A DNA stretch of 64,000 nucleotides from the human T2T-CHM13v2.0 reference genome, Homo sapiens. Shown here piece by piece: positions 6,335 through 64,000 of this stretch; position 1 is the first letter of the stretch, and the number at the start of each line of letters is the position of its first letter. Position numbers and translations under genes: made by a program. The stretch lies in NCBI RefSeq assembly GCF_009914755.1, contig NC_060930.1. One strand, 5' to 3'. The notes under the pieces were generated by a model, which did not search any database, had not been told where the DNA came from, and saw only the letters and a program-made list of their open reading frames with translations.

Positions 6335-7103
6335 TCATCACTGGCCATCAGAGAAATGCAAATCAAAACCACAATGAGATACCATCTCACACCAGTTAGA
6401 ATGGTGATCATTAAAAAGTCAGGAAACAACAGGTGCTGGAGAGGATGTGGAGAAATAGGAACACTTTTACACTGTTGGTGGGACTGTAAACTAGTAAAAC
6501 CATTGTGGAAGTCAGTGTGGCGATTCCTCAGGGATCTAGAACTAGAAATACCATTTGACCCAGCCATCCCATTACTGGGTATATACCCAAAGGATTATAA
6601 ATCATGCTGCTAGAAAGACACATGCACACGTATGTTTATTGCGGCACTATTCACAATAGCAAAGACTTGGAACCAACCCAAATATCCAACAACGATAGAC
6701 TGGATTAAGAAAATGTGGCACATATACACCATGGAATACTATGCAGCCATCAAAAATGATGAGTTCATGTCCTTTGTAGGGACATGGATGAAGCTGGAAA
6801 CCATCATTCTCAGCAAACTATCGCAAGGACAAAGAACCAAACACCGCATGTTCTCACTCATAGGTGGGAATTGAACGATGAGAACACATGGACACAGGAA
6901 GGGGAACATCACACACCAGGGACTGTTGTGGGGTGGGGGGAGGGGGGAGGGATAGCATTAGGAGATATACCTAATGCTAAATGACGAGTTAATGGGTGCA
7001 GCACACCAGCATGGCACATGTATACATATGTAACAAACCTGCACGTTGTGCACATGTACCCTAAAACTTAAAGTATAATAATAATAAAAAAAAGAAAAAA
7101 AAA
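6335..7103 (+). mobile_element. 5'-truncated young L1 (L1PA3-like): ORF2 C-terminus, 3'UTR and poly(A)
   Basis: [18 protein letters not shown]...[11 protein letters not shown]; 3'UTR G-tract and cattaggagatatacctaatgctaaatgacgagttaatggg; TSD aacagtt(g/a)tgtgtgt at 6320-6334 and 7195-7209. Confidence 0.93.
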
Positions 7104-30667: not shown

Positions 30668-30812
30668 CTGCCATGTCGATGGCAAAAGGCCTGTCTGCTC
30701 TCCAGCCGGTGTACCAGCCAACAACTTTGCCGTTTTCCACCAGCGGACGTTCGTAGCGCCGCCCACCAACCAGGCCCACAGGCCAGACGGAGACCTTGCG
30801 GGTGGTTCGCAT
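30668..30812 (-). CDS. B3GAT2: Internal coding exon (exon 2) of beta-1,3-glucuronyltransferase 2 (GlcAT-S), GT43 catalytic domain
   Basis: Minus strand reads cttttccctttttatag|ATGCGAACC...GACATGGCAG|gtgagca, with canonical AG/GT sites. 145 bp, phase 0 to phase 1. Translates to [48 protein letters not shown](G), including the GT43 motifs WPVGLVGG and RPFAIDMAG. CpG-rich relative to flanks. Confidence 0.96.
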
Positions 30813-46708: not shown

Positions 46709-49154
46709 CCTCTTCTTTTTTTAAGACTTTATTTTAGGTTCAGGGGTCCATGTGCAGGTTTGTTATCAATAAATTGCATGTTGTGGGGGTTTGGTGTACA
46801 GATTTTCATCACCCAGGTAATAAGCATATTAGGTCATTTTTTCTCTCCTCATCCTCCTCCTACCCTCCACCCTCAAGTAGGTCCAGTGTCCATTATTCCC
46901 TTCTTTGTATCCATGTGTTCTCAATGTTTAGCTTCCACTTATAAGTTAGAACATGCAGCATTTGGTTTTCTGTTCCTACATTAGTTCGCTTAGAGTATTG
47001 ACCTCCAGCACTATCCATGTTGCTGCAAAGGACATCATCTTATTCTTTTTTTATGGTTACGTAGTATTACATGGTGTATATGTACCACATTTTCTTTATC
47101 CAATCTACCAGTGATGGAAATTTAAGTTGGTTCCATGTCTTTCCTACTGTGAATAGTGCTGCGATGAACGTGTGTGTGCATGTGTCTTTATGGTAGAATG
47201 ATTTCTATTCCTTTGGGCATATACCCAATAAGTGGATGGCTGGGTAAAATGGTAGTTCTGTTTTAAGTACTTTGAGAAATTGCCACCCTGTTTTCCACAA
47301 TGGCTGAACTAATTTACATTTCCACCAGCAGCGTATAGGCATTCCCTTTTCTCCATAACCTCGTCAACATCTGCTATTTTATAACTTTTTAATAATACCC
47401 ATTCTGACTGGTGTGAGATGGTATCTCACTGTGGTTTTAATTTGTATTTCTCTAATGATTAGTGATGTTGGGCATTTTTTCATATGCTTGTTGGTCACAT
47501 GTATGTCATCTTTTGAAAAGTGTCTGTTCATTTACTTTAGCTACTTTAAAAATTTTTTTTTCTTGTAAACTTGTTTAAGTTCCTTATAGATTCTGGATAT
47601 TAGACCTTTGTCAGATGCATACTTTACAAATACTTTCTCCCATTCTATAGGTTGTCTGTTTACTCTCTTGATAGTTTCTTTTTGTTGTGCAGAAGATCTT
47701 TAATTAGGTCCCACTTGCCGTTTTTTTGTTGCAATTGCTTTTGGCATCTTCATCATGAAATCTTTGCCAGGGACTATGTCCAGAATGGTATTTCCTAGGT
47801 TTTCCTCTAGGGTTTTATAGTTTTTACAGTTAAGTCTTTAATACATCTTGAGTTGATTTTATATATGGTGATAGGAAGTGGTCTAGTTTTAATCTTCTGC
47901 ATATGGGTAGCGATCCATCCCGAATCACTTATTGACTAGCAGGTCCTTTCCCCATTGTTTGTTTTTGTCAATTTTGTCAAAGATCAGATGGTTCTGAGTA
48001 CACAGCTTTATTTCTGGGCTCTCTATTCCATTGGTTTATGTGTCTGTTTTTGTACAAGTACCATGCTGTTTTTGTTACTGTAAGCTTGCAGTACAGTTTG
48101 AATTTTGGTAATGTGATGCCTCCAGTTTTGTTCTTTTTGCTCAGGATTGATTTGGCTATTCAGGCTCTTTTTTGGTTCCACCTGAATTTTAGAATAGTTT
48201 TTTCTAATTCTGTGAAAAATATCACTGGTAGTTTGAAAGGAATAGCATTGAATCTGTAAATTGCTTTGGGCAGTATGGCCACTTTAACAACATTGATTCT
48301 TCCTATCCACGAGCATGGAATGAATGTTTTCTCGTTTGTTTGTGTTGTCTGATTTCTTTCAGCACTGTTTTGTAATTCTCAATCTAGAAATATTTTGCCT
48401 CTCTGGTTAGCTGTATGCGTAGGTATTTTATTTTTTGTGTGGCTATTATGAATGGGATTGTGTCCTTGATTGGCTCTCAGCTTGGATGTTGTTAGTGTAA
48501 AGGAATGCAACTTATTTTTGCACAGTGATTTTGTACACTGCAACTTTGCTGAAGTTGTTTGTCAGATCTAGGAGCTTTTGGGCAGACACTATGGAATTTT
48601 CTAGGTATAAAATCATATTGTCTGACTTCCTCTCTTCCTATTTGGATGCCTTTTCTTTATTTGTCTTGCTTGACTGCTCTGCCTAGGACTTCCAGTAGTA
48701 TATTGAATATGAGTGGTGATAGTGGGCATCCTTGTCTTATTCCACAAGGGGAATGCTTCCAGCTTTTGCTCTTTCAGTATGATGCTGGCTGTGATTTTTT
48801 CACAGATAGCTCTTATTATTTTGAGGTATGTTCCTTTGATGCCTAGTTTGTTGAGGGTTTCTAACATGAAGGGGTACTGAATTTTGCATTCAATAGATGT
48901 ATCTGCATCTATTGAGATTATCATTTGGTTTTTCTTTTTAGTTCTGTTCATGTGATGAATCATATTTATTGATTTGTATATGGTGAACCAATCTCACATG
49001 CCAAGTATAAAGCCTACTTGGATCATGGTGGATTAGTTTTTTGATGTGCTGCTGAATTCAGATTGCTAGTATTTTATTGAGAATTTTTGCATCTATGTTT
49101 GTCCAGGATATTGACTTGAGGTTTTCTTTTTATGTTGTCTCTCCCAGTTTTCGT

Positions 49155-49220
49155 TATCAGGATGAAGCTGGCCTTATATCAGGATGATGCTGGCCTTATA
49201 TCAGGATGATGCTGGCCTTA
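49155..49220. repeat. 22-bp unit x3 inside L1 ORF2
   Basis: tatcaggatga(a/t)gctggcctta three times. Confidence 0.95.
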
Positions 49221-49862
49221 TAGAATGAGTTAGGGAGGGGTCCCTCCTCCTTAATTTTTTGGAATAGTTTCAGTAGGAATGGTACCAGCTCTTCTTTATA
49301 CATCTGGCAGAATTTGGTCGTGGATCCATCTGGTCCAGGGCTTTTTTGGTTGGTAGGCTTTTTACTACTGATTCAATTTTGGAACTTGTTATTGGTCTGT
49401 TCAGGGTTTCAATTTCTTCCTTGTTCAGTCTTGGGAGACTGTATGTTTCCAAGAATTTATCGTTTCTTGTAGGTTTTTTAGTTTGTCTGCATAGAGGTGT
49501 TTGTAATAGTCTTTTAAGGTTTTTTATATTTCTGTTGGGTTGATGGTAATGTCCTCTTTGTCATTTCTGATTAAGTTTATTTGGATCTGCTCTGTTTTTT
49601 GATTAGTATAATCAGTGGTCTATCCATCTTATTTATTGTTTCAAAGAACCAGCTTCTGGTTTCACTGGTCTTTTATATCATTTTCCTGTCTCAATTTCAT
49701 TCAGTTCAGTTCTTGTTTTGGTTCTTTTCTTCTGCTAGCTTTGCAGTTGGTTTGCTCTTGTTTTTCTAGTTCCTCTAGGTGCAATGTTAGGCTGTTAATT
49801 TGAGATCTTTCTAACTTTTTGATAGGGGTGTTTAGTGCTATAAACTTCCCTCTTAATACTGC

Positions 49863-49944
49863 TTTAGCTGTGTCGCAGAGATTTTGGTATATTTTATCTT
49901 TATTTTAGCTGTGTCTCAGATATTTTCGTATATTTTATCTTTAT
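49863..49944. repeat. 41-bp tandem duplication (3 mismatches)
   Basis: tttagctgtgtc(g/t)caga(g/t)atttt(g/c)gtatattttatctttat x2. Confidence 0.9.
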
Positions 49945-50668
49945 TTTCAATAGTTTCAAAAAATGTCTTGATTTCTGCCTTAATTTCATTGTTTACCCAA
50001 AAGTCATTCAGGAGCAGGTTGTTTGATTTGCATGTAGCTGTATGTTTTGAATGATCTTCTTGGGGCTGATTTCTACTTTTGTTGCGCCATGGTCCAAGAG
50101 TGTGGTTAGTGTGATTCTTGTGTTTTTAATTTGCTAAGAATTGACTTATGGCCGATTGTGTGGTCGACTTTAGAGTATGTGCCATGTGGCGATGAGAAGA
50201 ATGTATATTCTGTTGTTTTGGAGTGCAGAGTTCTGTAGATGTCTGTTGGGTCCATTTAGTCAAATACTGAGTTCAGGTCCCAAGTATCTTTGTTAGTGTT
50301 CTGCCTTGATGATTGAATACTGTTAGTGGGGTGCTGAAGTCTCCCAATATTACCGTGTGGTTATCCATGTCTCTTTGTAGGTCTCTAAGAATTTGTTCTA
50401 TGAATCTGCAAGCTCCTGTGTTGGGTACATATATTTAGGATATTTAAGTCTTCTTGTTGAATTGAACCCTTTATGATTATGTCATGCCCTTGTCTTTTTT
50501 GATCATTGTTGCTTTAAAGTCTGCTTTGTCTAAAATTAGAATGGTAACTCCTGTTTTCTTTTCCCATTTACTTGGTAGATTTTTCTTTAAACCTTTATTT
50601 TGAGCCTATGGGTAGCTCTGCATGAGATGGGTCTCTTGAAGACAGCATACAATTGTGACTTATTTCTT

Positions 50669-53600
50669 CTTCTTTTTTTAAATTATACTTTAAATTCAAG
50701 GGTACATGTGCACAACATGCAGGTTTGTTACGTGGTTATACATGTGCCATGCTGGTATGCTGCACCCATCAACTCGTCATTTACATTAGGTATTTCTCCT
50801 AACACTACCTCTCCCCCAGTCCCCCACCCTCTGACAGGCCCCGGTGTGTGATGTTCCCCTCTCTGTGTCCACGTGTTCCCATAGTTCAGCTCCCACTTAT
50901 GAGTGAGAACATGCGGTGTTTGGTTTTCTGTCCTTGTGATAGTTTGCTGAGAACGATGATTTCCAGCTTCATCCATGTACCTACAAAGGATATGAACTCA
51001 TCCTTTTTTATGGCTGCATAGTATTCCATGGTATATATGTGCCACATTTTCTTTATCCAGTCTATTATTATTATTTTTTTTAACAAAGACATTTATTTTG
51101 GAGAAAGCATTGATTGTAGATTTTGAAACTATTTTTATGATGTTTTCCCCTCTTGGTGCCAGCAAAAAATGCAACTTTTCTAAGACTTTGAAAAGTTACT
51201 AGTAAACTGCCTGACATTCCTTCTTGATATCCTTATAGGTGTAAATATTTACAGAAATGGGAATGATCCTAATCCAAATCCATAAAATTGAATAACTTTT
51301 TTTTTAACCAGACATAGAATACTATATATCCAGTCTATTATTGATGGACATCTGGGTTGGTTCCAAGTCTTTGCTATTGTAAATAGTGCTGCAATAAACA
51401 TATGTGTGCATGTGTCCTTATAGTAGAATGCTTTATAATCCTTTGGGTATATACCCACAAATGGGATTGCTGGGTCAAATGGTATTTATAGTTGTAGATC
51501 CTTGAGGAATCGCCACACTGTCTTCCACAATGGTTGCACTAATTTACACTCCCACCAACAGTGTAAAAGTGTTCCTATTTCTCCACATCCTCTCCAGCAT
51601 CTGTGGTTTCCTGGCTTTTTAATGATCGCCATTCTAACTGGCATGAGATGGTATCTCATTGTGGTTTTGACTTGCATTTCTCTGATGACCAGTGATGATG
51701 GACATTTTTTCATATGTCTGTTGGCTGCATAACTGTCTTCTTTTGAGAAGTGTCTGTTCATATCCTTTGCCCACTTTTTGATGCAGTGGTTTTTTTTTTC
51801 TTGTAAATTTGTTTAGGTTCTTTGTACATTCTGAATATTAGCCCTTTGTCAGATGGATAGATTGAAAAATTTTTCTCCCATTCTGTAGGTTGCCTATTCA
51901 CTCTGATGGTAGTTTATTTTGCTGTGCAGAAGCTGTTTAGTTTAATTAGATGCCATTTGTCAATTTTGGCTTTTGTTGCCACTGCTTTTGGTGTTTTAGT
52001 CATAAAGTCTTTGCCCATGCCTATGCACTGAAGGGTATTGCCTAGGTTTTTTTGTAGGGTTTTTATGGTTTTAGGTATTACATTCAAGTCTTTTATCCAT
52101 CTTGAGTTAATTTTTGTATAAGGTGTAAGGAAGGGATCCAGTTTCAGCTTTCTACATATGGCTAGCCTGTTTTCCCAGCACCATTTATTAAATAGGGAAT
52201 CCTTTCCCGATTTGTTTTTGTCAGGTTTGTCAAATATCAGATGGTTGTAGATGTGTGGTGTTATTTCTGAGGCCTCTGTTCTATTCCGTTGGTCTACATG
52301 TCTGTTTTGGTACCAGTAACATGCTGTTTTGGTTACTGTAGCCTTGTAGTGTAGTTTGAAGTCAGGTAGTGTGATGCCTCCAGCTTTGTTCTTTTTGCCC
52401 AGGATTGTCTTGGCTATGTGGGCTCTTTTTTGGTTCCATATGAGCTTTAAAGTAGTTTTTTTCCAATTCTGTGAAGTCAGTGATAGCTTGATAGGGATAG
52501 CATTGAATCTTTAAATTACCTTGGGCAGTATGGCCATTTTCATGATAGTGATTCTCCCTATCCATGAGCATGGAATGTTCTTCCATTTGTTTGTATCCTC
52601 TTTTATTTCATTGAGCAGTGGTTTGTAGTTCTCCTTGAAGAGGTCCTTCACATCCCTTGTAAGTTGGATTCCTAGGTATTTTATTCTCTTTGAGGCAGTT
52701 GGGAATGGGAGTTCACTCATGATTTGGCTCTCTGTTTGTCTGTTCTTGGTGGATAGGAATGCTTGTGATTTTTGTACATTGATTTTGTATCCTGATACTT
52801 TGCTGAAGTTGTTTATCAGCTTAAGGAGATTTGGAGCTGAGACGATGAGGTTTTCTACATATATAATCATGTCATCTACAAACAGACTATTTGACTTCCT
52901 CTTTTCCTAATTGAATACCATTTATTTATTTCTCTTGCCTTATTGCCCTGGCCAGAACTTCCAACACGATGTTGAATAGGAGTGGTGAGAGAGAGCATCC
53001 TTGTCTTGTGCCAGTTTTCAAAGGGAATGCTTCCAGTTTTTGCCCATTCAGTATATTGGCTGTGGGTGTGTCATAAATAACTCTTACTGTTTTGAGATAC
53101 ATTCTATCAATACCTAGTTTATTGAGAGTTTTTAGCATGAAAGGCTGTTGAATTTTGTTGAAGGCCTTTGCTGCATGTATTGAGATAATCATGTGGTTTT
53201 TGTCGTTGGTTCTGTTTATGTGATGGATTACATTTATTGATTTGCCTATGTTGAACCAGCCTTCCATCCCAGGGATGAAGTCGACTTGATCGTAGTGGAT
53301 AAGCTTTTTGATGGGCTGCTGGATTCGGTTTGCCAGTATTTTTTTTTGAAAATTTTCATATCGATGTTCATCAGGGATGTTGGCCTAAAATTATCTTTTT
53401 TTGTTGTGTCTCTGTGAGGCTTTGTTATCAGGATGATGTTGGCCTTATAAAATGAGTTAGGGAAGATTCCCTCTTTTTCTATTGATTGGAATAGTTTCAG
53501 AAGGAATGGTACTAGCTCCTCTTTGTGCCCCTGGTAGAATTTGGCTGTGAGTCTGTCTGGTCCTGGACTTTTTTTGGTTGGTTGGCTATTAATTATTGCC

Positions 53601-56600
53601 TCAATTTCAGAAGCTGTCACTGAACTATTTAGAGATTCAACTTCTTCCTGGTTTAGTCTTGGGAGGGTGTATGTGTCAAGGAATTTTTCCATTTCTTCTA
53701 GATTTTCTATTTTATTTGCGTAGAGGTGTTTATAGTATTGTCTGATGATAGTTTGTATTTCCGTGGGATCGGTGGTGATATCCCCTTTATCATTTTTTAT
53801 TGCGTCTATTTGATTCTTCTCTCTTTTCTTCCTTATTAGTCTTGCTTGTCATGTAATTATTTTGTTGCTCTTTTCAGAAAACCAGCTCCTGGGTTCATTG
53901 ATTTTTTTTAAGGGTTTTTTGTGTCTCTCTCTCCTTTAGTTCTGCTCTGATTTATTTCTTGTCTTCTGCTAGCTTTTGAATTCATTTGCTCTTGCTTCTG
54001 TAGTTCTTTTATAATTGCAATGTTAGGGTGTCGATTTTAGATCTTTCCTGTTTTCTCCTGTGGACACTTAGTGCTGTAAATTTCTCTCTACACACTGCTT
54101 TAAATGTTTCTCAGAGATTCTTGAACGTTGTATCTTTGTTCTTATTGGCTTCACAGAACATTGTTATTTATGCCTTCATTTCGTTATTTACCCAGTAGTC
54201 ATTCAGGAGCAGGTTGTTCAGTTTCCATGCAGTTGTGCAGTTTTGAGTGAGTTTCTTAATCCTGAGTTCTAATTTGATTGCATTGCGGTCTGAGAGACAG
54301 TTTGATGTAATTTCTGTTCTTTTATATTTGCTGAGCAGTGTTTTGCTTCCAATTATGTGGTCAATTTTAGAATAAGTGTGATGTGGGGCTGAGGAGAATG
54401 TATATTCTGTTGATTTGGGAAGAAGAGTTCTGTAGATGTCCATTAGTTCTGCTTGCTCTAGAGCTGAGTTCAAGTCCTGGATATCCTTGTTAACTTTCTG
54501 TCTCGTTGATCCATCTAATATTGACAGTGGGGTGTTAAAGTCTCCCATTATTATTGTGTGGGAGTCTAAGTCTCTTTGTAGACTTAGTCTCTAAGAACTT
54601 GCTTTATGAATCTGGGTGCTCCTGTATTGGGTGCATATATATTTAGGATAGTTAGCTCTTCTTGTTGAATTGATCCCTTTACCATTATGTTAACGGCCTT
54701 CTTTGTCTCTTTTGATCTTTGTTGCTTTAAAGTCTGTTTCATCAGAGACCAGGATGGCAAACCCTTTTTTTTGCTTTCCATTTGCTTGGTAGATCTTCTT
54801 CCATCACTTTATTTGAGCCTATGTGTGTCTTTGCATGTGAGATAGGTCTCCTGAATACAGTCAAGGGTCTTGTCTCTTTATCCAATTTGCCAGTCTGTGT
54901 CTTTTAATTGGGGCATTTAGCCCACTTACATTGAAGGTTAATATTGTTATGTGTGAATTTGATCCTGTCATTATGATGTTAGCTGGTTATTTTGCCCATC
55001 AATTGATGCAGTTTCTTCATAGCATCGATGGTCTTTACAATTTGTCATGTTTTTGTAGTGGCTGGTACCGGTTGTTCCTTTCCATGTTTAGTTCTTCCTT
55101 CAGGAGCTTTTGTAAGGCAGGCCTGGTGGTGACAAAATCTCTCAGCATTTGCTTGTCTGTAAAGGATTTTATTTCTCCTTCACTTATGAAGCTTAGTTTG
55201 GCTGGATATGAAATTCTGGGTTAAAAATTCTTTTCTTTAAGCATGTTGAATATCGGCCCCCTCTCTCTTCTGGCTTGTAGTGTTTCTGCTGAGAGATCTG
55301 CTGTTAGTCTGATGGGCTTCCCTTTGTGGGTAACCCGACCTTTCTCTCTGGCTGCCCTTAACATTTTTTCCTTCATTTCAACCTTGGTGAATCTGACAAT
55401 TATGTGTCTTGGGGTTGCTCTTCTCGAGGAGTATCTTTGTGGTGTTCTCTGTATTTCCTGAATTTGAATGTTGGCCTGCCTTGCTAGGTTGGGGAAGTTC
55501 TCCTGCATAATATCCTGAAGAGTGTTTTATAACCTGGTTCCATTCTCCCTGTCACTTTCAGGTACACCAATCAAACGTAGATTTGGTCTTTTCACATAGT
55601 CCCGTATTTCTTGGAGGCTTTATTCGTTTCTTTTCACTCTTTTTTCTCTAATCTTGTCTTCTTGCTTTATTTCATTAATTTGATCTTCAATCACTGATAT
55701 CCTTTCTTTCGCTTGATTGAATCAGCTATTGAAGCTTGTGTATGTTTCATAAAGTTCTTGTACTATGGTTTTAAGCTCTATCATGTCATTTATATTCTTC
55801 TCTACACTGGTTATTGTATTCTAGTTAGCCATTCATCTAGCATTTTTTCAAGGTTTTTAGCTTCCTCGCGATTGGTTAGAACATGCTCCTTTAGCTTGGA
55901 GAAGTTTGTTATTACCGACCTTCTGAAGCCTACTTCTGTCAACTCATCAAATTCATTCTCTGTCCAGTTTTGTTCCCTTGCTGGCGAGGAGTTGTGATCC
56001 TTGGAGAAGAAAGGCGTTCTGGTTTTGGAATTTTCAGCCTTTCTTCTCTGGTTTCTCCCCATCTTTGTGGTTTTATCTACCTTTGGTCTTTGATGTTGGT
56101 GACCTACGGATGGGGTTTTCGTGTGGATGTCCTTTTTGCTGATGTTGATGCTATTCCTCTTTGTTAGTTTTCCTTCTAACAGACAGTCCCCTCAGCTGCA
56201 GGTCTGTTGGAGTTTGCTGGAGTTCCACTCCAGACCGTTTGCCTCGGTATCACCAATGGAGGCTGCAGAACAGCAGATATTGCTGCCTGATCCTTCCTCT
56301 GGAAGCTTCGTCCTAGAGGGGCACCCGCCTGTATGAGATGTCTGTTGGCCCCTACTGGGAGGTATCCCCCAATCAGGCTACACAGGGGTCAGGGACCCAC
56401 TTGAGGAGGTAGTCTGTCCGTTATCAGAGCTTGAACGCCCCCGTGCTGGGAGAACCACTGCTTTCTTCAGAGCTGTCAGGCAGGGATGTTTAAGTCTGCA
56501 GAAGCTGTCTGCGGCATTTTTTTCAGATATGCCCTGCCCCCGAGGTAGAATCTACAGAGGCAGTAGGCCTTGCTGAGCTGCAGTGGGCTCCGTCCAGTTC

Positions 56601-57101
56601 AAGCTTCCCTGCTGCTTTGTTTACGCCGTGAGCATAGAACCGCTTACTCAAGCCTCAGCAATGGTGGACGCCGCTCCCCACCCACCAAGCTCCAGCATCC
56701 CAGGTCGATCTCAGACTGCTGTGCTAGCAGTGAGCAAGGCACCATGAGCGTGGGACCCACCGAGCAGGCATGGGAGGGAATCTTCCGGTCTGCCTGTTGC
56801 GAATACCGTGGGAAAAGTGCAGTATTTGAGCAGGAGTGTACTTTTCCTCTAGGTACAGTCACTCATGGCTTCCCTTGGATAGGAAAGGGAAATCCCCTGA
56901 CCCCTTGCACTTCCTCGGTGAGGGATGCCCCGCCCTGCTTCGGCTTGCCCTCCATGGGCTGCACCCACTGTCCAACCAATCCCAATGAGATGAACCAGGT
57001 ACCTCAGTTGGAAATGCAGAAATTACCTGTCTTCTGCATTGATCTTGCTGGGAGCTGTAGACCAGAACTGTTCCTATCCTGCCATTTGGAGCAACTCTCC
57101 A
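50669..57101 (-). mobile_element. Full-length inactive L1 (L1PA7-like) nested in the older L1
   Basis: 5'UTR, ORF1 (MGRNQRRKAENSK), ORF2 pieces ([30 protein letters not shown]) with stops and frameshifts, 3'UTR; TSD tgtg(a/t)cttatttctt at 50654-50668 and 57102-57116. Confidence 0.93.
51070..51326 (-). pseudogene. Retroposed polyadenylated non-L1 fragment (truncated processed pseudogene 3'UTR or orphan transduction)
   Basis: Perfect 16-bp TSD tatccagtctattatt (51054-51069 and 51327-51342); minus-strand AATAAA at 51092-51097 and short A tail at 51070-51081. Confidence 0.8.
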
Positions 57102-57116
57102 TGTGTCTTATTTCTT

Positions 57117-58660
57117 TATCAAATTTGCCATTCTGTACTTTTTAAGTCAGGCATTTTGCATGTTTACTTTTAAGGATAATACTTATATGTGTTGATTTGA
57201 TCCTGTCATCATGATGTCAGCTGGATATTATGCAGACTTGATAGCGTAATTGCTTTATAGTGTTCAGAGGTCTAGTCCTTAAGTATATTTTTGTGGTGGC
57301 CAGTAACAGTCTTTTGTTTCCATATTTGGCACTCACTTAAGGACCTCTTGTAAGGCATGTCTGGTGGTAATGAATTCTCTTAGCATTTGCTTGTCTGAAA
57401 AGGATCTTGTTTCTCCTTTGCTTATTAAGCTTAGTCTTGCTGCACAGGAAATACTTGGTTGGAATTTTTTTTGCTGAACATAGGTCTCCAAATCTCTCCT
57501 GGCTTGTAGTGCTTTTGCTGAAAGGTCTTCTGTTAGCCTCATCGGAATCCCTTTGTAGGTGACCTGCCCCTTTTCTCTAGCTGCCTTAGTATTTTTTCTT
57601 TGATGTTGACGTTGGAGAATCTGATGCCTACATGTCTTGGGGATGGTTGTCTTGTATAGTATCTCACAGGGGTTTTCTGCATTTCCTGAATTTGAATTTT
57701 GGCCTCTCTAGCAAGGCTGGAAAAATTGCTTTTTCTCTCTCTCTTTCAGGGATGTCAATGAGTCACAGATTTGGTCTCTACCTAATCTCATATTTCTCAG
57801 TGGTTTTGTTCACTCTTTTTAATTATCTGTTCATTATTTTTGTCTGAGTTGATTTGAGGAACCAGTCTTCAAGCTCTGAGATTCTTTCCTCAGCTTGGTC
57901 TATTCTGATGTTAGTAGTCTATTCTGATGTTAACAATGCTTGTGATTGCATTATGAAATTCTTGTAGTGAGTTTTTCAGCTCTATCAGTTCAGTTTGGTT
58001 CTTTCTTAAAATGGCTATTTCGTTTCATCTCTTGTATTGTTTTATTGGATTCCTTAGATTCCTTGGATTGGGTTTCAACTTTCTCCTGAATCTCAATGAT
58101 CTTTTTTCTATCCAGATTCTCAATTCTATCTCTGTCATTTCAGTTTTGTTAAGAACCATTGCTAGGGAACCAGTGGGGTTGTCTGGAGGTAAGAAGGCAC
58201 TCTAGTTTTTTGAATTGCCAGAGTTCTTGCATTGATTCTTTCTCATCTGTGTGGGCTGACATTCCTTTAATCTTTGAAGTTGCTATCCTTTGGATAGGGC
58301 TTTTTACTTTTATATTCTTTGATATTCTTGAGGGTTTGATTGTGGTATAATGTCGGTTCAGTTGACTGGCTTCATTCTGGATGCTTTCAGGGCACCAAGG
58401 CTCAGCTCATCACTCATGGGCTATGTGATGTAACGCTGATGGGCTGGTACTGGGCCCCCCAACTTTGTTCTCTGCCCCATAGAGGTTAGAAAGCTGCTGC
58501 ACTCTGGGGGCAAGGTATTCCCAGTATGCTGGTAACAGTACTCTGATGGGGGTGCTGGCCACACACTTCATCAAGGTGGTGGCAGCAGGATCCATGCCTG
58601 TGCATTTGTGCCAGCAGAAGCAGGGGTACAGCAAGATGCATACATCTGTGGGAGCAGGGT
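57117..58660 (-). mobile_element. 5' continuation of the older L1 (ORF2 start, ORF1, 5' region)
   Basis: Collinear with the sequence ending at 50653; ORF1 remnant RLTEDLSAKALQARRD...FSDKQMLREFITTR. Confidence 0.85.
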
Positions 58661-58664
58661 GCCT

Positions 58665-59400
58665 GAAGGATATTTCATAATGATAAAGGATCAATTCCTC
58701 AAGAAAAAAATCTAAGTGTATAGGCACCAAATAACATAGTTTCAAAATACATAAAATAAAAAATATATTTAAAAGGTAAAAGAAAAGTCTTCTAGTCCTA
58801 ATCAGAAACATTAACAATTTGTATTTTATAGAATAAGCACATGAAATATCTGTAGGAATATAGAACATCTGAGCAGCACTCAATCTAATTGACAAATATA
58901 GAACACTGTATCCAACAATCGCAGAATAAATGTTATTTAAGTGTACATGCAACATGCACCAGTATCAACCATATGCAGGAATATAAAGTAAATCAATAAA
59001 TTTCAATTGAGTGAAACTATATTTTAAAACCACATAGAATTAAATTAGAAATCAAAACCAAATGTAAGAAAATCCTAAGTATTTCAAAATTAGCATTTTA
59101 TATTATTTAGTAAAATTATTTTTAAAATGAACAAATAAATATAAATTAGAAAATATTCTGAATATAAAAATACAGCATCAAAATATGTGGGATGCAACAA
59201 AAACAATGCCTAGGGTGAAGTGTAAAGCTTTAAGCATAATAAATATTGAAAAGAAGAGAGGTAGAAAAATCAAAGATCTAAGTTTTCATCTCAAGAAACT
59301 AAAAAAAGAAGAGAAAATTAAACCAAAAATAAAGGAAGGAAATAAAATTGAGAATAAAAAAATCAATGAGCGATAGACAATAGAGAAAAAGCAAAGTGCA
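58665..59400 (+). mobile_element. Old L1M ORF2 endonuclease-region fragment
   Basis: atttcataatgataaaggatcaattc; MWDATKTMPRVKCKALS remnant. Confidence 0.7.
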
Positions 59401-59409
59401 GTGTTGGAT

Positions 59410-59625
59410 TTGTGAATCTGGCTCCTAGAAATCCAACCTCAGATCCACCACTAATTAGCTGTGTGGCCTCAGGCAAATTAATAAGACACTGTATGACCAT
59501 TTCCACACATATAAATGGGTATAACAACATCAATGTACCATGTCATAGGGTTGTTTTGAATATTAAATGAGTTAAAACATATAAAGGACTATGGTTCTGC
59601 TACATAAATAAGTACCATATAAGTG
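59410..59625 (+). mobile_element. MIR
   Basis: ccaccactaattagctgtgtggcctcaggcaaatta...catagggttgttttgaatattaaatgag. Confidence 0.7.
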
Positions 59626-59930
59626 TCTTCTGTCATCATTGTCATCAGCATCATCATCAACATAGGCTGCTCAGAGGATGTGATTCTCCAAACTTGGTTT
59701 AGACATTGGGACCTAGTACCAGGTAAACAGTGGAAACTCTTTTCTTATATGTTTAAAACAAAAAGACACATATCTTTCTATGAAAAACTGCATCAAGTAA
59801 ATTCTATCATCAGCCCAGCCCTGAAATAAGGGCTGCCCTTCTTTCTGTGTTCCAGAATTTAGAAGGTTAATCTTTGATGCATGTTTAGTGTCAACATAAA
59901 CAAGAACCAAGTCACTTAAAACCCTGCTTA

Positions 59931-60216
59931 GTCCAGGTGCAACGGCTCACACCCGTAATCCCTGCACTTTGGGAGGCTGAGGTGTCAGAATTGCTTGAGC
60001 CCAAGAGCTTGAGACCACCTGAGCAGTGTAGTGAGACTCTCTACAAAAATTTTTTTAAAGAAGTAGCCAGGCATGGTTGTGTGAACCTATAGTCCCAGCT
60101 GCTTGGGATGCTGAGGTGGAAGGATTACTTGAGCCAGGAGGTCAAGCCAGGATTGCACCACTGTACTCCAATCTGGGCGACAGAGTCAGACCCTGTCTCA
60201 ATCAATCAATCAATAA
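59931..60216 (+). mobile_element. AluJ
   Basis: TSD taaaaccctgcttag at 59917-59931 and 60217-60231; (AATC)n tail. Confidence 0.9.
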
Positions 60217-60534
60217 TAAAACCCTGCTTAGAAACATCTCACAGGTAGACAATTCAGAAAACCCTGTATTATTTTGTTGATAATTTGTGTGTGCTATTCT
60301 TATACATTTTTGTGAAATGTATAACACTTTCTGTGTAGTAATTTAAAAGTACTGAATGACATTGTGGAATATGTTTTGGTTTCCATTTTTCTATGCTGTA
60401 TCATATTTTTAAGATCTGTTTATATTGTTGTATGTACTTAAAGTTTCTCTCAGTCCTGGATTTTTTAGTTCTGTTAGTAGTATCTGACATTTTTCAGAGA
60501 CAGAACAGAGACTAAACCAACTTATTAAAACTTA

Positions 60535-61137
60535 ACAGGTGGGAGTGGGGTGTACTTAATGGGTACAATGGAAGTTATTTGAGTGATGGATACCATAAAA
60601 GTCCTGACATCACCACTATACAATCTATACATGTAACAAAATTGCACTTGTAACCCATACATTTGTATTAATAAAACACTTCCCCCAAAATTTAAAAAAT
60701 AAAACCTACCAGCATAAAAAATCATAAATAAACTTAACCAAGGAGGCAAAAACCATATACACTAAAAACTATGAAACACTGGTGAAAGAAATTAAAGACC
60801 ACAAAGATAAATGGAACAAAATTCCATATTTATGGATTGGAAGAGTTAATATTGCTAAATGTCAAAACTACTAAAGAAGATCTACAGAGTCAATGCAATC
60901 TCTATCAAAATCCCAATGATGTTTTTTGCAGTAACAGAATAATAATACATCTTAAAATTCACATGGAATCTCAAGGCACCCTGAATAGCCAAAAGAATCT
61001 TGAAAAGAATAAGTAAGTCACACTTTCCAATTTCAAAACTTATAACAAAGCTACATTAATCAAAGCAATGTGGTACTGGCATAAAGACAGAAATATAGAC
61101 CAATGGACTAGAATAGAGAGCCCAGAAATAAACCCTA
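60535..61137 (+). mobile_element. L1 fragments (3'UTR piece, then L1M ORF2 piece)
   Basis: catgtaacaaaattgcacttgtaacc; gtggtactggcataaagacagaaatatagaccaatgg. Confidence 0.75.
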
Positions 61138-61705
61138 TGCAACCACCCTTGCAAAACTTAAAACAGTGAGAAAATTATGACAGTGAAGGAGATCTGATCC
61201 AACCAGCCTGCATCTTGCCTTTACCCTCCAAATGCCCTTAGTCATTCCTGGGATTGGGTCAAGCTAACTTTGGAAGAAATTTAGTTTGTAGTTTAAATGA
61301 TAATAGCCCTTCCCCCAAACTAAACTACTTTCGTAAAACTAATGAAAGACCACCAGAATGGGAGAATGAGAGGAGCCTCAATTCTACTAAGACATAGATG
61401 TGAACAATTACCAGTCATTATTCTGCAAATCACAAGATTCGCAACTTCCTCAATTACTCCTGCAGGTAATATCACTATTATAGATCCTGAGGTTGGCCTT
61501 TTGAGATGTCTTTTCAGGCTTTTGCAATTCTGACAACCAGATGGCACCACCTGACCTGCCAACCAGTCCTGCGGCCTTCGCCCAGAAGTGGACTCAGCAT
61601 AAGGATCATTTCCCACACCTCTGTGATTGCACCGCCAACCAATCAGCAGCACTCATTCCTTTGTCATCTCTCTCCCTGCCAAACTATCCTTGAAAAAACC
61701 CTAGC
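61138..61705 (+). mobile_element. LTR8-family (LTR8A/B-like) ERV1 LTR, interrupted by L1
   Basis: tgcaaccacccttgcaaaac...gagaaaattatgacagtgaaggagatctga; caaccaatcagcagcac; breaks at ttgaaaaaaccctagc. Confidence 0.8.
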
Positions 61706-64000
61706 AGGATCGTTACAAGATGGCCGAAGAGGAACAGCTCTAGTCTACAGCTCATGCATCTGCGTGAGTGACGCAGAAGACAGGAGATTTCTGCATTTCC
61801 AACTAAGGTACTGGGTTCATCTTACTGGGACTTGTTGGACAGTGGGTGCAGGCCATGGAGTGTGAGCCAAAGTAGGGCGGGGCATCACCTCACCCTGGAA
61901 GCACAAGGGGTCAGGGAATTCCCTTTCCTAGCCAAGGGAAGCCGTGACAGATGGTACCTGGAAACTCGGGACACTCCCGCCCTAATACTGCGCTTTTCCA
62001 ATGGTCTTAGCAAACGGCACACCAGGAGATTATAACCCGTGCCTGGCTCGGCGGTTCCCACACCTATGGAGCCTTGCTTACTGCTAGCACAGCAGTCCGA
62101 GATCAAACTGCAAGACGGCCCCAAGACTGGGGGAGGGGCGTCTGCCATTGCTGAGGCTTGACTAGGTAAACGAAGCGGCCAGAAAGCTCAAACTGGGTGG
62201 AGCCCACCAGAGCTCAACCAGGCCTGCCTGCCTCTGTAGACTCCACTTCTGGGGGCAGGGCATAACTTAACAAAAGGCAGCAGAAACCTGCAGACTTAAA
62301 CGTCCCTGTCTGACAGCTTTGAAGAGAGCAGTGGTCCTCCCAGCACAGAGTCTGAGATCTGGGAATGGACAGACTGCCTCCTCAAGTGGGTCCCTGACCC
62401 CTGAGTAGCCCAGTGGGAGACACCTCCCAGTAGGGGCCGACTGACACGTCATACAGCCAGGTGCCCCTCTGAGATGAAGGTTCCAGAGGAAGGATCAGGC
62501 AGCAACATTTGCCGTTCTGCAATATTTGTTGTTCTGCAGCCTCTGCTGGTGACACCCAGGCAAACAGCGTCTGGAGTAGACCTCCAGCAAACTCCAAAAG
62601 ACCTGCAGCTGAGGGTCCTGAATGTTAGAAGGAAAACTAACAAAGCATCAACAAAACTAGCATCAACATCAACAAAAAGGACATCCACACCAAAACCCCA
62701 TCTGTAGGTCACCATCATCAAAGACCAAAGTTTGATAAAACCACAAAGATGCGGAGAAAACAGAGTAGAAAAGCCAAAAATTTTAAAAATCAGAGCGACT
62801 CTTCTCCAAAGGATCGCAGCTCCTCGCCAGCAAAGGAAGAAAGCTGGATGGAGAATGACTTTAATGAGTTGACAGAAGTAGGCTTCAGAAGATTGGTAAT
62901 AACAAACTTCTCCGAGCTAAAGGAGGGTGTTCGAACCCATCTCAAAGAAGCTAAAAACCTGGAAAAACGATTAGACAAATGGCTAATTACAATAAACAGC
63001 ATAGAGAAGATCTTAAATGACCTGATGGAGCTGAAAACCATGGCATGAGAAATACGTGACGAATGCACAAGCTTCAGTAGCTGACTCGATCAACTGGAAG
63101 AAAGGGTATCAGAGATTGAAGATCAAATGAATGAAATGAAGTGAGAAGAGAAGTTTAGAGACAAAAGAGTAAAAAGAAATGAACAAAGTCTCCAAGAAAT
63201 ATGGGACTATGTGAAAAGACCAAATCTACGTTTCATTGGTGTACCTGAAAGTGACGGGGAGAATGGAACCAAGTTGGAAAACACTCTTCAGGATATTATG
63301 CAGGAGAACTTCCCCAACCTAGCAAGGCAGGCCAACATTCAAATTCAGGAAATACACAGAACGCCACAAAGATACTCCTCCAGAAGGGGAATCCCAAGAC
63401 ACATAATTGTCAGATTCACCAAGGTTGAAATGAAGGAAAAAATGGTAAGGGCAGCCAGAGAGAAAGGTCGGGTTACCCACAAAGGGAAGCCCATCAGACT
63501 AACAGCAGATCTCTCAGCAGAAACACTACAAGCCAGAAGAGAGAGGGGGCCGATATTCAACATGCTTAAAGAAAAGAATTTTTAACCCAGAATTTCATAT
63601 CCAGCCAAACTAAGCTTCATAAGTGAAGGAGAAATAAAATCCTTTACAGACAAGCAAATGCTGAGAGATTTTGTCACCACCAGGCCTGCCTTACAAGAGC
63701 TCCTGAAGGAAGAACTAAACATGGAAAGGAACAACCAGTACCAGCCACTGCAAAAATAGGCCAAATTGTAAAGACCATCGATGCTATGAAGAAACTGCAT
63801 CAACTAATGAGCAAAATAACCAGCTAACATCATGATGACAGGATCAAATTCACACATAACAATATTAACCTTCAATGTAAATGGGCTAAAAGCCCCAATT
63901 AAAAGACACAGACTGGCAAATTGGATAAAGAGTCAAGACCCATCAGTGTGCTGTATTCAGGAGACCCATCTCACATGCAGAGACACACATAGGCTCAAAA
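61706..64000 (+). mobile_element. L1 (L1PA5/6-like): intact 5'UTR, disrupted ORF1, start of ORF2; runs off the window
   Basis: caagatggccgaa YY1-site start; ORF1 MRRKQSRKA with internal stops; ORF2 start atgacaggatcaaattcacacataac. Confidence 0.93.
61885..62148 (-). CDS. L1 antisense ORF0 homologue (87 aa), open reading frame only; expression unknown
   Basis: MADAPPPVLGPSCSLISDCCAS...EPGTGYNLLV resembles primate L1 ORF0 (MAGAPPPASLPPCSLISDCCAS); true ATG in gcaATGG context. Confidence 0.55.
   Translation of the reverse strand: MADAPPPVLGPSCSLISDCCASSKQGSIGVGTAEPGTGYNLLVCRLLRPLEKRSIRAGVSRVSRYHLSRLPLARKGNSLTPCASRVR

What the first reader, a model, noticed from the sequence alone, without database searches (positions are those of the whole stretch)
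55110..63696. Inverted L1s of different subfamilies share a perfect 251-bp ORF1 tract with the same nonsense mutation
Seen: by hand alignment, the reverse complement of 55110-55360 is identical to 63446-63696 (251/251). Adjacent 60-bp blocks show 2-5 mismatches each (about 6%), so roughly 15 differences would be expected. The two 5'UTRs are visibly different (L1PA7-like versus L1PA5/6-like). Both copies read ERGPIFNMLKEKNF-stop (TAA at 55221-55223 and 63583-63585), where the L1 ORF1 consensus as I recall it is EWGPIFNILKEKNFQP. That is three shared derived changes. Other apparently shared variants outside the tract (attatgcagg, gaagaactaaac, ccttcaatgt) hint at an older, longer exchange. Inference: recent ectopic gene conversion between inverted repeats about 8 kb apart, the expected footprint of an NAHR-prone, possibly polymorphic inversion in a B3GAT2 intron. 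The left L1 still has matching TSDs and a collinear host L1, so this haplotype is in ancestral orientation.
Basis: partly seen in the sequence, partly recalled or inferred. Interest (0 to 1): 0.8.

Follow-up and report, generated by a model that had tools for sequence, protein, structure and literature searches.

The report
Gene conversion between neighbouring inverted L1s
Two old, dead L1 retrotransposons lying head-to-head in a B3GAT2 intron have copied a 251-base stretch from one to the other, which is an ordinary repeat-to-repeat gene conversion; nothing here shows an inversion.

Summary
The reverse complement of 55110-55360 equals 63446-63696, 251 of 251. Both copies read ...ERGPIFNMLKEKNF-stop.

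The two full-length L1s inserted independently. Each keeps its own target-site duplications. Their closest genomic relatives are disjoint sets.

The tract is far beyond chance. Among 378 unlinked pairs of copies from the same two L1 groups, the longest perfect run is 121 bp, and tract divergence is never below 3.7%. The tract carries 5 variants that are rare in 53 unlinked copies. No other copy among the 40 scored genome-wide exceeds 97% identity.

The best explanation is non-allelic gene conversion between inverted repeats 8.1 kb apart. It is the latest event in a roughly 1-kb zone of older, patchy exchange (63203 to about 64214). That zone is 5.3% diverged, against at least 6.0% in all 378 control pairs, and it has extra shared rare variants.

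The direction of transfer is unresolved. The age is roughly under 6-12 My. The proposed polymorphic NAHR inversion is untested: this haplotype is in the ancestral orientation and shows no reciprocal swap. This is a known phenomenon at a locus I did not find described in print.

The parts
50669..57101 (-). Left full-length L1 (5' end at 57101, poly-A end near 50669). It carries a 245-bp nested retrocopy at 51078-51322.
   Evidence: BLAST and global alignment to the right L1. Junctions read directly. The ORF1 piece hits Pfam Transposase_22 at 6.3e-49 and Tnp_22_dsRBD at 2.5e-09.
57102..57116 (-). 5' target-site duplication of the left L1 (15 nt).
   Evidence: Read directly. It matches 50654-50668 with 1 mismatch.
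50654..50668 (-). 3' target-site duplication of the left L1.
   Evidence: Read directly.
57113..57720 (-). Older host L1, upstream half. It is interrupted by the left L1 and is collinear with 49910-50650.
   Evidence: 73-75% matches to consecutive positions of the right L1 (3314-3931 and 3946-4711 in L031 coordinates). The sequence continuity across the TSD was read.
61707..64000 (+). Right full-length L1. It runs beyond the window to about 67891.
   Evidence: The ORF1 piece hits Pfam Transposase_22 at 1.9e-60, Tnp_22_trimer at 1.7e-11 and Tnp_22_dsRBD at 4.2e-09.
61695..61706 (+). 5' target-site duplication of the right L1 (12 nt). Its perfect partner is at 67892-67903, outside the window.
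   Evidence: Read directly.
55110..55360 (-). Left copy of the 251-bp identical tract (end of the ORF1 RRM domain and start of the C-terminal domain).
63446..63696 (+). Right copy of the 251-bp identical tract.
63525..63585 (+). Core of 5 shared rare variants (63525, 63544, 63552, 63564, 63583), including the shared TAA at 63583-63585. The mirror sites are 55281, 55262, 55254, 55242 and 55223.
   Evidence: each state is found in at most 3 of 53 unlinked copies. One search gives the same result with 41 copies.
63203..64000 (+). Wider zone of lowered divergence and older patchy exchange. It runs to about 64214, outside the window. The mirror is about 54600-55603.
   Evidence: 5.3% divergence outside the tract, against at least 6.0% in 378 of 378 unlinked pairs. 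Shared rare sites lie at 63300, 63713, 63873, 64120 and 64123.

Best explanation
Two full-length L1 retrotransposons of different subfamilies inserted independently, head-to-head, with 4.6 kb between their 5' ends. They lie in the B3GAT2 intron upstream of the exon at 30668-30812.

Later, a DNA break in one element was repaired using the other as template. This non-allelic, non-crossover gene conversion most likely went by synthesis-dependent strand annealing, within one chromatid or between sisters. It overwrote about 250 bp of ORF1, carrying across the donor's private mutations, including a nonsense codon.

This was the latest of several short exchanges. They cluster in the roughly 1-kb stretch (ORF1 3' half to ORF2 start) where the two subfamilies were most alike to begin with. 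Each exchange raises local identity and so favours the next.

Shown: independent insertion, the identity, the shared private variants, and the wider zone of lowered divergence. Inferred: the repair pathway, the timing, and the self-reinforcing clustering. Unresolved: which copy was the donor.
For: (1) Independent origin. Each L1 is flanked by its own TSD. A 301-bp coiled-coil query from the right copy finds 39 unlinked copies at 91-92% identity. The same query from the left copy finds 39 unlinked copies at 88-90%. The two lists share no place, and neither lists the local partner (40 scored of 4020 and 4013 candidates). In that region the pair is 18.6% diverged, more than all 378 unlinked control pairs.

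(2) The tract. It is 251/251 identical. P = 2e-5 to 1.9e-4 under uniform models. 0 of 378 control pairs have a perfect run above 121 bp.

(3) Shared private variants. There are 5 rare states inside the tract. In total 8 shared-rare sites lie in the 1151-bp region, against a control mean of 0.63 and a maximum of 3 in 378 pairs. Genome-wide, only the two local copies are 100% identical to the tract; the other 38 scored copies are 96-97% (40 scored of 1554 candidates).

(4) Wider zone. Outside the tract, 63203-64005 is 5.3% diverged (29/546), lower than all 378 control pairs (median 9.1%, minimum 6.0%). Three shared-rare sites lie outside the tract; only 2 of 378 control pairs reach 3. For 64090-64205 the local partner is the best non-self hit at 99%, and the other 38 scored are 97-98%. 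Four of the six longest remaining perfect runs (79, 63, 51 and 46 nt) lie on or directly beside a shared-rare site. The 52-nt run (63393-63444) holds none, and the 77-nt run could not be tested.

(5) Literature. Tract size and repeat spacing fit what is in print. Mammalian conversion tracts are a few hundred bp and rarely above 1 kb (passage in PMC3961182). Non-allelic conversion between transposable elements is elevated for copies less than 10 kb apart (passage in PMC6598467, citing Aleshin and Zhi 2010).
Against: - No outgroup or second human haplotype could be examined, so the pre-conversion state of neither copy was seen. Donor and date are therefore inferred.
- One marker of the older exchange is weak. 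The 79-bp run with 63300 G is also 100% identical in an unlinked copy at C6:84514846.
- Six sites in the 1-kb zone (63256, 63276, 63363, 63804, 63810, 63980) still differ according to subfamily type. The older exchange therefore cannot be one clean long tract. It must be patchy or multiple.
- The control panels were chosen as nearest neighbours of short queries and are mixed. The R panel is polymorphic at several 'diagnostic' sites.
- Only 40 best candidates per genome search are scored, so 'no third copy' is a lower-bound statement.
Confidence: 0.88

Rival explanations
1. The tract is the by-product of crossover events. The roughly 8.1-8.6-kb segment between the two tracts flips by NAHR between the inverted L1s, perhaps recurrently and still polymorphically in humans. 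The conversion accompanies those crossovers.
For: The inverted arrangement and a 251-bp uninterrupted identity are at about the minimal homology for efficient mammalian recombination (threshold recalled, not tested). Small polymorphic inversions between inverted TEs exist, for example HsInv0341 with 6.2-kb L1PA3 repeats and HsInv0347 with 1.6-kb THE1C repeats (table passage of PMC3961182). In 1,019 long-read genomes, 45 of 257 balanced inversions are bordered by inverted repeats (passage of PMC12350158).
Against: Both TSD pairs are intact and in cis, so this haplotype has seen zero or an even number of flips. No subfamily-diagnostic site is swapped between the copies, as two flips with different crossover points would leave. 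Every site classed DIFF_subfam has the left type on the left and the right type on the right; only one polymorphic CpG-like site, 63737, is ambiguous. Overall identity of the repeats is only 85-90%, far below the repeats of known inversions. The search for 'B3GAT2' plus 'inversion' gave 5 papers, of which 3 were listed and none was relevant.
Confidence: 0.07
2. Assembly or polishing artefact. One copy was overwritten with reads from the other in T2T-CHM13.
For: None found. It cannot be excluded without reads or a second assembly.
Against: The patch is 251 bp inside 6-kb repeats that differ by 10-15% and lie 8 kb apart, well within single long reads (general knowledge of the assembly, not tested). 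Shared rare variants interleaved with private differences continue for about 800 bp around the tract, which polishing errors would not produce.
Confidence: 0.03
3. Both copies were converted from, or descend from, a third L1 carrying the same haplotype (a sub-subfamily trait).
For: Single tract variants do occur sporadically elsewhere, in 1-3 of 53 panel copies each.
Against: No third copy above 97% identity over the tract was found among 40 scored of 1554 candidates. The nearest copies lack the five-variant combination. The two elements belong to different subfamilies.
Confidence: 0.02

Closest known systems
Non-allelic (interlocus) gene conversion between neighbouring transposable elements, best documented for Alu (Aleshin and Zhi 2010, as summarised in Fawcett and Innan 2019, PMC6598467; passages seen)
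   Same: Independent insertions less than 10 kb apart show a short tract of homogenised sequence. Subfamily-diagnostic sites form a mosaic, and private mutations are transferred together.
   Different: Here the partners are 6-kb L1s of different subfamilies in inverted orientation. The exchange is confined to about 1 kb of ORF1/ORF2, with a 251-bp perfect core. I saw no paper describing this locus.
Polymorphic human inversions mediated by inverted repeats (Aguado et al. 2014, PMC3961182; table and discussion passages seen)
   Same: Inverted TE copies flank a segment of a few kb. Gene conversion between the repeats is reported there too.
   Different: Known cases have kb-long, highly identical repeats (for example 6.2-kb L1PA3) and both orientations observed. 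Here identity is 85-90% overall, uninterrupted homology is 251 bp, and only one orientation has been seen.
L1-L1 homology-mediated structural variants (Schloissnig et al. 2025, PMC12350158; passages seen)
   Same: L1PA pairs serve as recombination substrates; they take part in 76.4% of L1-L1-mediated SVs there.
   Different: Those are crossover products between directly oriented L1s (219 deletions and 1 insertion). Here there is a non-crossover patch with no rearrangement.

Membership tests
Non-allelic gene conversion tract between dispersed repeats | The two repeats are paralogues of independent origin, not one duplication. | tested here: met
   They have separate TSD pairs and disjoint nearest-neighbour sets. 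Divergence in the coiled-coil segment is 18.6%.
Non-allelic gene conversion tract between dispersed repeats | A segment whose identity is significantly above that of its flanks and of unlinked pairs. | tested here: met
   251/251 identity, with P = 2e-5 to 1.9e-4. 0 of 378 control pairs have a run above 121 bp or tract divergence below 3.7%.
Non-allelic gene conversion tract between dispersed repeats | Shared derived variants private to the pair lie inside the segment. | tested here: met
   Five sites, each in at most 3 of 53 unlinked copies. The best third copy is 97% identical.
Non-allelic gene conversion tract between dispersed repeats | The transfer is non-reciprocal (copies made alike, not swapped). 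| tested here: met
   The copies are identical in the tract, and no swapped diagnostic sites are seen.
Non-allelic gene conversion tract between dispersed repeats | The pre-conversion state is visible in an outgroup or another haplotype, which gives donor and date. | not testable with these tools
   Only the window's own genome is held. No primate orthologues or other human haplotypes are available.
NAHR inversion polymorphism between inverted repeats | Inverted repeats flank the segment. | tested here: met
NAHR inversion polymorphism between inverted repeats | Both orientations are observed among haplotypes or species. | not testable with these tools
   No other haplotype is held. The literature search found nothing relevant. 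The supplements seen held no usable inversion list for this place.
NAHR inversion polymorphism between inverted repeats | Chimeric repeats or mispaired TSDs as a trace of a flip in this haplotype. | tested here: not met
   Both TSD pairs are correctly paired, the host L1 is collinear, and no reciprocal swap is seen.
Full-length primate L1 (LINE-1) element | ORF1p domains, a length of about 6.1-6.4 kb, an A-rich 3' end and TSDs. | tested here: met
   Pfam Transposase_22, Tnp_22_trimer and Tnp_22_dsRBD. Spans 50669-57101 and 61707-67891 with A-rich ends and TSDs. ORF2 domains were not scanned. Subfamily names (L1PA5/6/7) were not tested.

The most novel reading that the evidence does not exclude
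The perfect 251-bp tract is the current crossover substrate of a recurrent, still-segregating inversion of about 8.1-8.6 kb in a B3GAT2 intron. Under this reading, the roughly 1-kb zone of patchy homogenisation records repeated flip-associated exchange between two L1s of different subfamilies. It would be an example of old, diverged transposons being 'rejuvenated' by conversion into an NAHR hotspot.
Probability: 0.06. Interest if true: 0.4.

Novelty: new member of a known kind. Interest (0 to 1): 0.2.

Why it matters
This is a clean, well-controlled example of non-allelic gene conversion between old L1s of different subfamilies, and it bears on three practical points.

- Conversion can copy disabling mutations between repeats.
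- It can make repeat copies look younger or more closely related than they are, which biases divergence-based dating and subfamily calls.
- It can create a stretch of perfect homology that could in principle seed rearrangement.

It does not change what is known about the mechanism. It lies deep in an intron, with no sign of an effect on B3GAT2.

Tried and rejected
- Donor direction could not be resolved. The tract has no clean subfamily-diagnostic site. At 63525 the left type is C, the right type is T, and both copies have A. Private-mutation densities in the flanks are similar: about 15 left-private and 11 right-private events in about 550 bp. Only the small patch 63762-63803 points left-to-right: at 63787 both copies have T, which is found in 11 of 14 left-type but 1 of 27 right-type copies.
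- PRDM9-type 13-mer (motif recalled): 4 hits in the 64-kb window, none in 49000-64000. There is no support for a motif-driven hotspot.
- The 77-bp perfect run at 66156-66232 could not be tested. The genome search returned nothing because the words are too common, so it is inconclusive.
- Inversion catalogues gave no real negative. The supplement of PMC12350158 has no inversion table in its index. The supplement search of PMC12350169 showed no chr6 row among the places displayed, but the file is cut and only the first two places per term were shown. PMC9563103 (Porubsky 2022) and PMC2950799 (Aleshin and Zhi 2010) are not held.
- Subfamily naming was not possible because no Dfam or RepeatMasker library is available.
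- Rows dropped before counting:
  - Of the 28 unlinked loci, I used 12 and dropped 16 of the 17 copies of one chr11 tandem array.
  - Of 29 right-type loci I dropped L051 and L052, leaving 27.
  - Of 16 left-type loci I dropped L067 and L068, leaving 14.
  - Those four were truncated or interrupted.
  - One search used 41 copies (12 + 29) and no left-type panel.
Full report
**1.

The reverse complement of 55110-55360 is identical to 63446-63696 (251/251). The run is bounded by mismatches at 63445 and 63697.

- The ungapped arm 62988-63949 has 69 mismatches in 962 nt, and the next longest perfect run is 79 nt.
- Outside the tract, 63203-63949 has 28 mismatches in 496 bp (5.6%), so about 14 differences would be expected in 251 bp.
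- Placing 28 mismatches uniformly in 747 bp gives P(run >= 251) = 1.9e-4. Using the outside rate gives 2e-5.
- Both copies translate to ...RRERGPIFNMLKEKNF*, with TAA at 63583-63585 and rc(55221-55223).
- Pfam places the tract at the end of the L1 ORF1p RRM domain (Transposase_22) and the start of the C-terminal domain (Tnp_22_dsRBD).

**2. Anatomy**

The left L1 lies on the minus strand, 50669-57101. It is flanked by a 15-nt target-site duplication with one mismatch (57102-57116 and 50654-50668). It sits inside an older L1 whose two halves (57113-57720 and 49910-50650) are collinear.

The right L1 lies on the plus strand from 61707. It runs past the window end to about 67891 (locus L031). It has a perfect 12-nt duplication at 61695-61706 and 67892-67903.

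The elements are head-to-head with 4605 bp between their 5' ends, and the two tract copies are 8085 bp apart. Overall they are 85-90% identical.

Both ORF1s carry other, independent in-frame stops. The shared stop is therefore a passenger marker and has no functional meaning.

**3. Different subfamilies and independent insertions**

I queried the genome with a 301-bp coiled-coil segment from each copy.

- The right copy's query finds 39 unlinked copies at 91-92% identity.
- The left copy's query finds 39 unlinked copies at 88-90% identity.
- The two lists share no place, and neither lists the local partner.
- In that segment the pair is 18.6% diverged (60/323), more than all 378 unlinked left-type x right-type control pairs (median 12.6%, maximum 17.6%).

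I could not assign Dfam names. The left copy is the more diverged of the two.

**4. The tract is a transfer of private mutations**

I built a panel of 53 unlinked copies:

- 12 nearest to the tract;
- 27 nearest to the right coiled coil;
- 14 nearest to the left coiled coil.

The rows dropped are listed under Tried and rejected. Against this panel, five sites inside the tract carry a state shared by the two local copies but rare elsewhere:

| Site | Shared state | Panel copies with that state | Effect |
|---|---|---|---|
| 63525 | A | 2 of 53 | |
| 63544 | A | 3 of 53 | W to R |
| 63552 | G | 1 of 53 | |
| 63564 | G | 1 of 53 | I to M |
| 63583 | T | 2 of 53 | Q to stop |

Genome-wide, only the two local copies are 100% identical to the tract. 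The other 38 scored copies are 96-97% identical (40 scored of 1554 candidates, 17 of them from one tandem array on chr11).

Empirical control, over 378 unlinked left-type x right-type pairs:

- The longest perfect run has median 52 and maximum 121.
- The number of shared-rare sites has mean 0.63 and maximum 3, against 8 observed.
- Divergence in the tract interval has median 7.4% and minimum 3.7%, against 0 observed.

Chance, a subfamily trait and a third donor are thereby very unlikely.

**5. The tract is the core of a wider, older zone of exchange**

- Outside the tract, 63203-64005 is 5.3% diverged (29/546). That is lower than every one of the 378 control pairs (median 9.1%, minimum 6.0%), even though the same two copies are more diverged than every control pair in the adjoining coiled-coil segment.
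- The profile puts the low-divergence zone at about 63203-64214.
- Shared-rare sites outside the tract are 63300 G, 63713 A and 63873 C, and 64120 G plus a 1-nt insertion at 64123.
- For 64090-64205 the local partner is the best non-self hit at 99%; the other 38 scored are 97-98%.
- Four of the six next-longest perfect runs (79, 63, 51 and 46 nt) lie on or directly beside such a site. The 52-nt run (63393-63444) holds none, and the 77-nt run at 66156-66232 could not be tested.

There are caveats. The 79-nt run is also 100% identical in an unlinked copy, so 63300 alone is weak. Six subfamily-type differences persist inside the zone, so the older exchange was patchy or multiple rather than one clean tract. 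At 63787 the right copy carries the left-type base (11 of 14 left-type against 1 of 27 right-type copies), which suggests left-to-right transfer for that patch only.

**6. Mechanism**

The best explanation is non-allelic, non-crossover gene conversion. A break in one L1 is repaired from the nearby inverted L1, probably by synthesis-dependent strand annealing (pathway inferred).

- The tract length fits the few-hundred-bp norm for mammals (passage in PMC3961182).
- The 8-kb spacing fits the elevated rate reported for transposable elements less than 10 kb apart (passage in PMC6598467).
- Clustering in the ORF1 3' half and ORF2 start is expected, because that is where unlinked copies of the two types are most alike: median divergence 7-9% there against 12.6% in the coiled coil. 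Each exchange then raises local identity further (inference).

Timing: zero differences in 251 bp give a 95% upper bound of about 6-12 My, with a median of about 1.4-2.8 My, for rates of 1.0 to 0.5e-9 per site per year (rates recalled). If 63697 is a later mutation, the tract was 291 bp long with one subsequent change.

The donor is unresolved.

**7. The inversion idea**

Both TSD pairs are intact and no reciprocal swap of diagnostic sites is seen. This haplotype is therefore in the ancestral orientation, or has flipped an even number of times leaving no trace.

A conversion tract does not require or demonstrate an inversion. The 251-bp perfect homology is near the minimal length for efficient recombination (recalled), so a flip is possible but unshown. 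Known repeat-mediated polymorphic inversions use kb-long, highly identical repeats.

I found no paper on an inversion at this place. I could not consult an inversion call set for it.

**8. Verdict**

This is a real and well-supported instance of a known process at a locus I did not find described. Specialist surprise is low. The inversion reading remains a low-probability extension that pangenome data could settle quickly.

Noticed in passing
L031:5326-5890 (= window coordinates 65326-65890, beyond the window end): The right L1 carries a nested, 5'-truncated L1 3' end of about 570 bp in the same orientation. It has an A-rich tail and a possible 12-nt duplication. It is 91.8% identical to the host element's own 3' end and 93.7% identical to another L1 3' end at window 6513-7086. 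It sits where about 583 bp of ORF2, present in the left L1 at 52931-53514, are missing.
   Followed up: partly
window 51078-51322 (minus strand): A 245-bp insert lies in the 3' part of the left L1. It ends in AATAAA plus a poly-A run and is flanked by a repeat of about 15 nt (read directly). Most of it (51111-51325) falls in a gap between stretches in NCBI's listed repeat mask. Its only other match in the genome is C1:89985609-89985834 at 98% identity over 226 nt. It looks like a young retrocopy of a transcript 3' end; the parent gene was not identified.
   Followed up: partly
G000:C11:94153598-94243975 (loci L008-L024): Seventeen hits to the L1 ORF1 tract are spaced exactly 5633 bp apart on chr11, all 97% identical to the query. 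This is a tandem array whose unit contains an L1 ORF1 segment.
   Followed up: no
window 63381-63392: Four right-copy-private substitutions fall within 12 bp (63381, 63387, 63389, 63392), each rare or absent in the panels. They may be one clustered mutation event next to the conversion zone.
   Followed up: no
L031:6156-6232 (= 66156-66232) and window 52596-52673: A 77-nt perfect run lies between the two L1s in ORF2, within 100 alignment columns that have no mismatch. It could be a further conversion patch. The genome search for it returned nothing usable.
   Followed up: partly
window 61600-61706 and L031:7904-8020: The right L1 is inserted into sequence that reads like an LTR-type repeat continuing on both sides of the TSD (read directly). 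I did not identify it.
   Followed up: no
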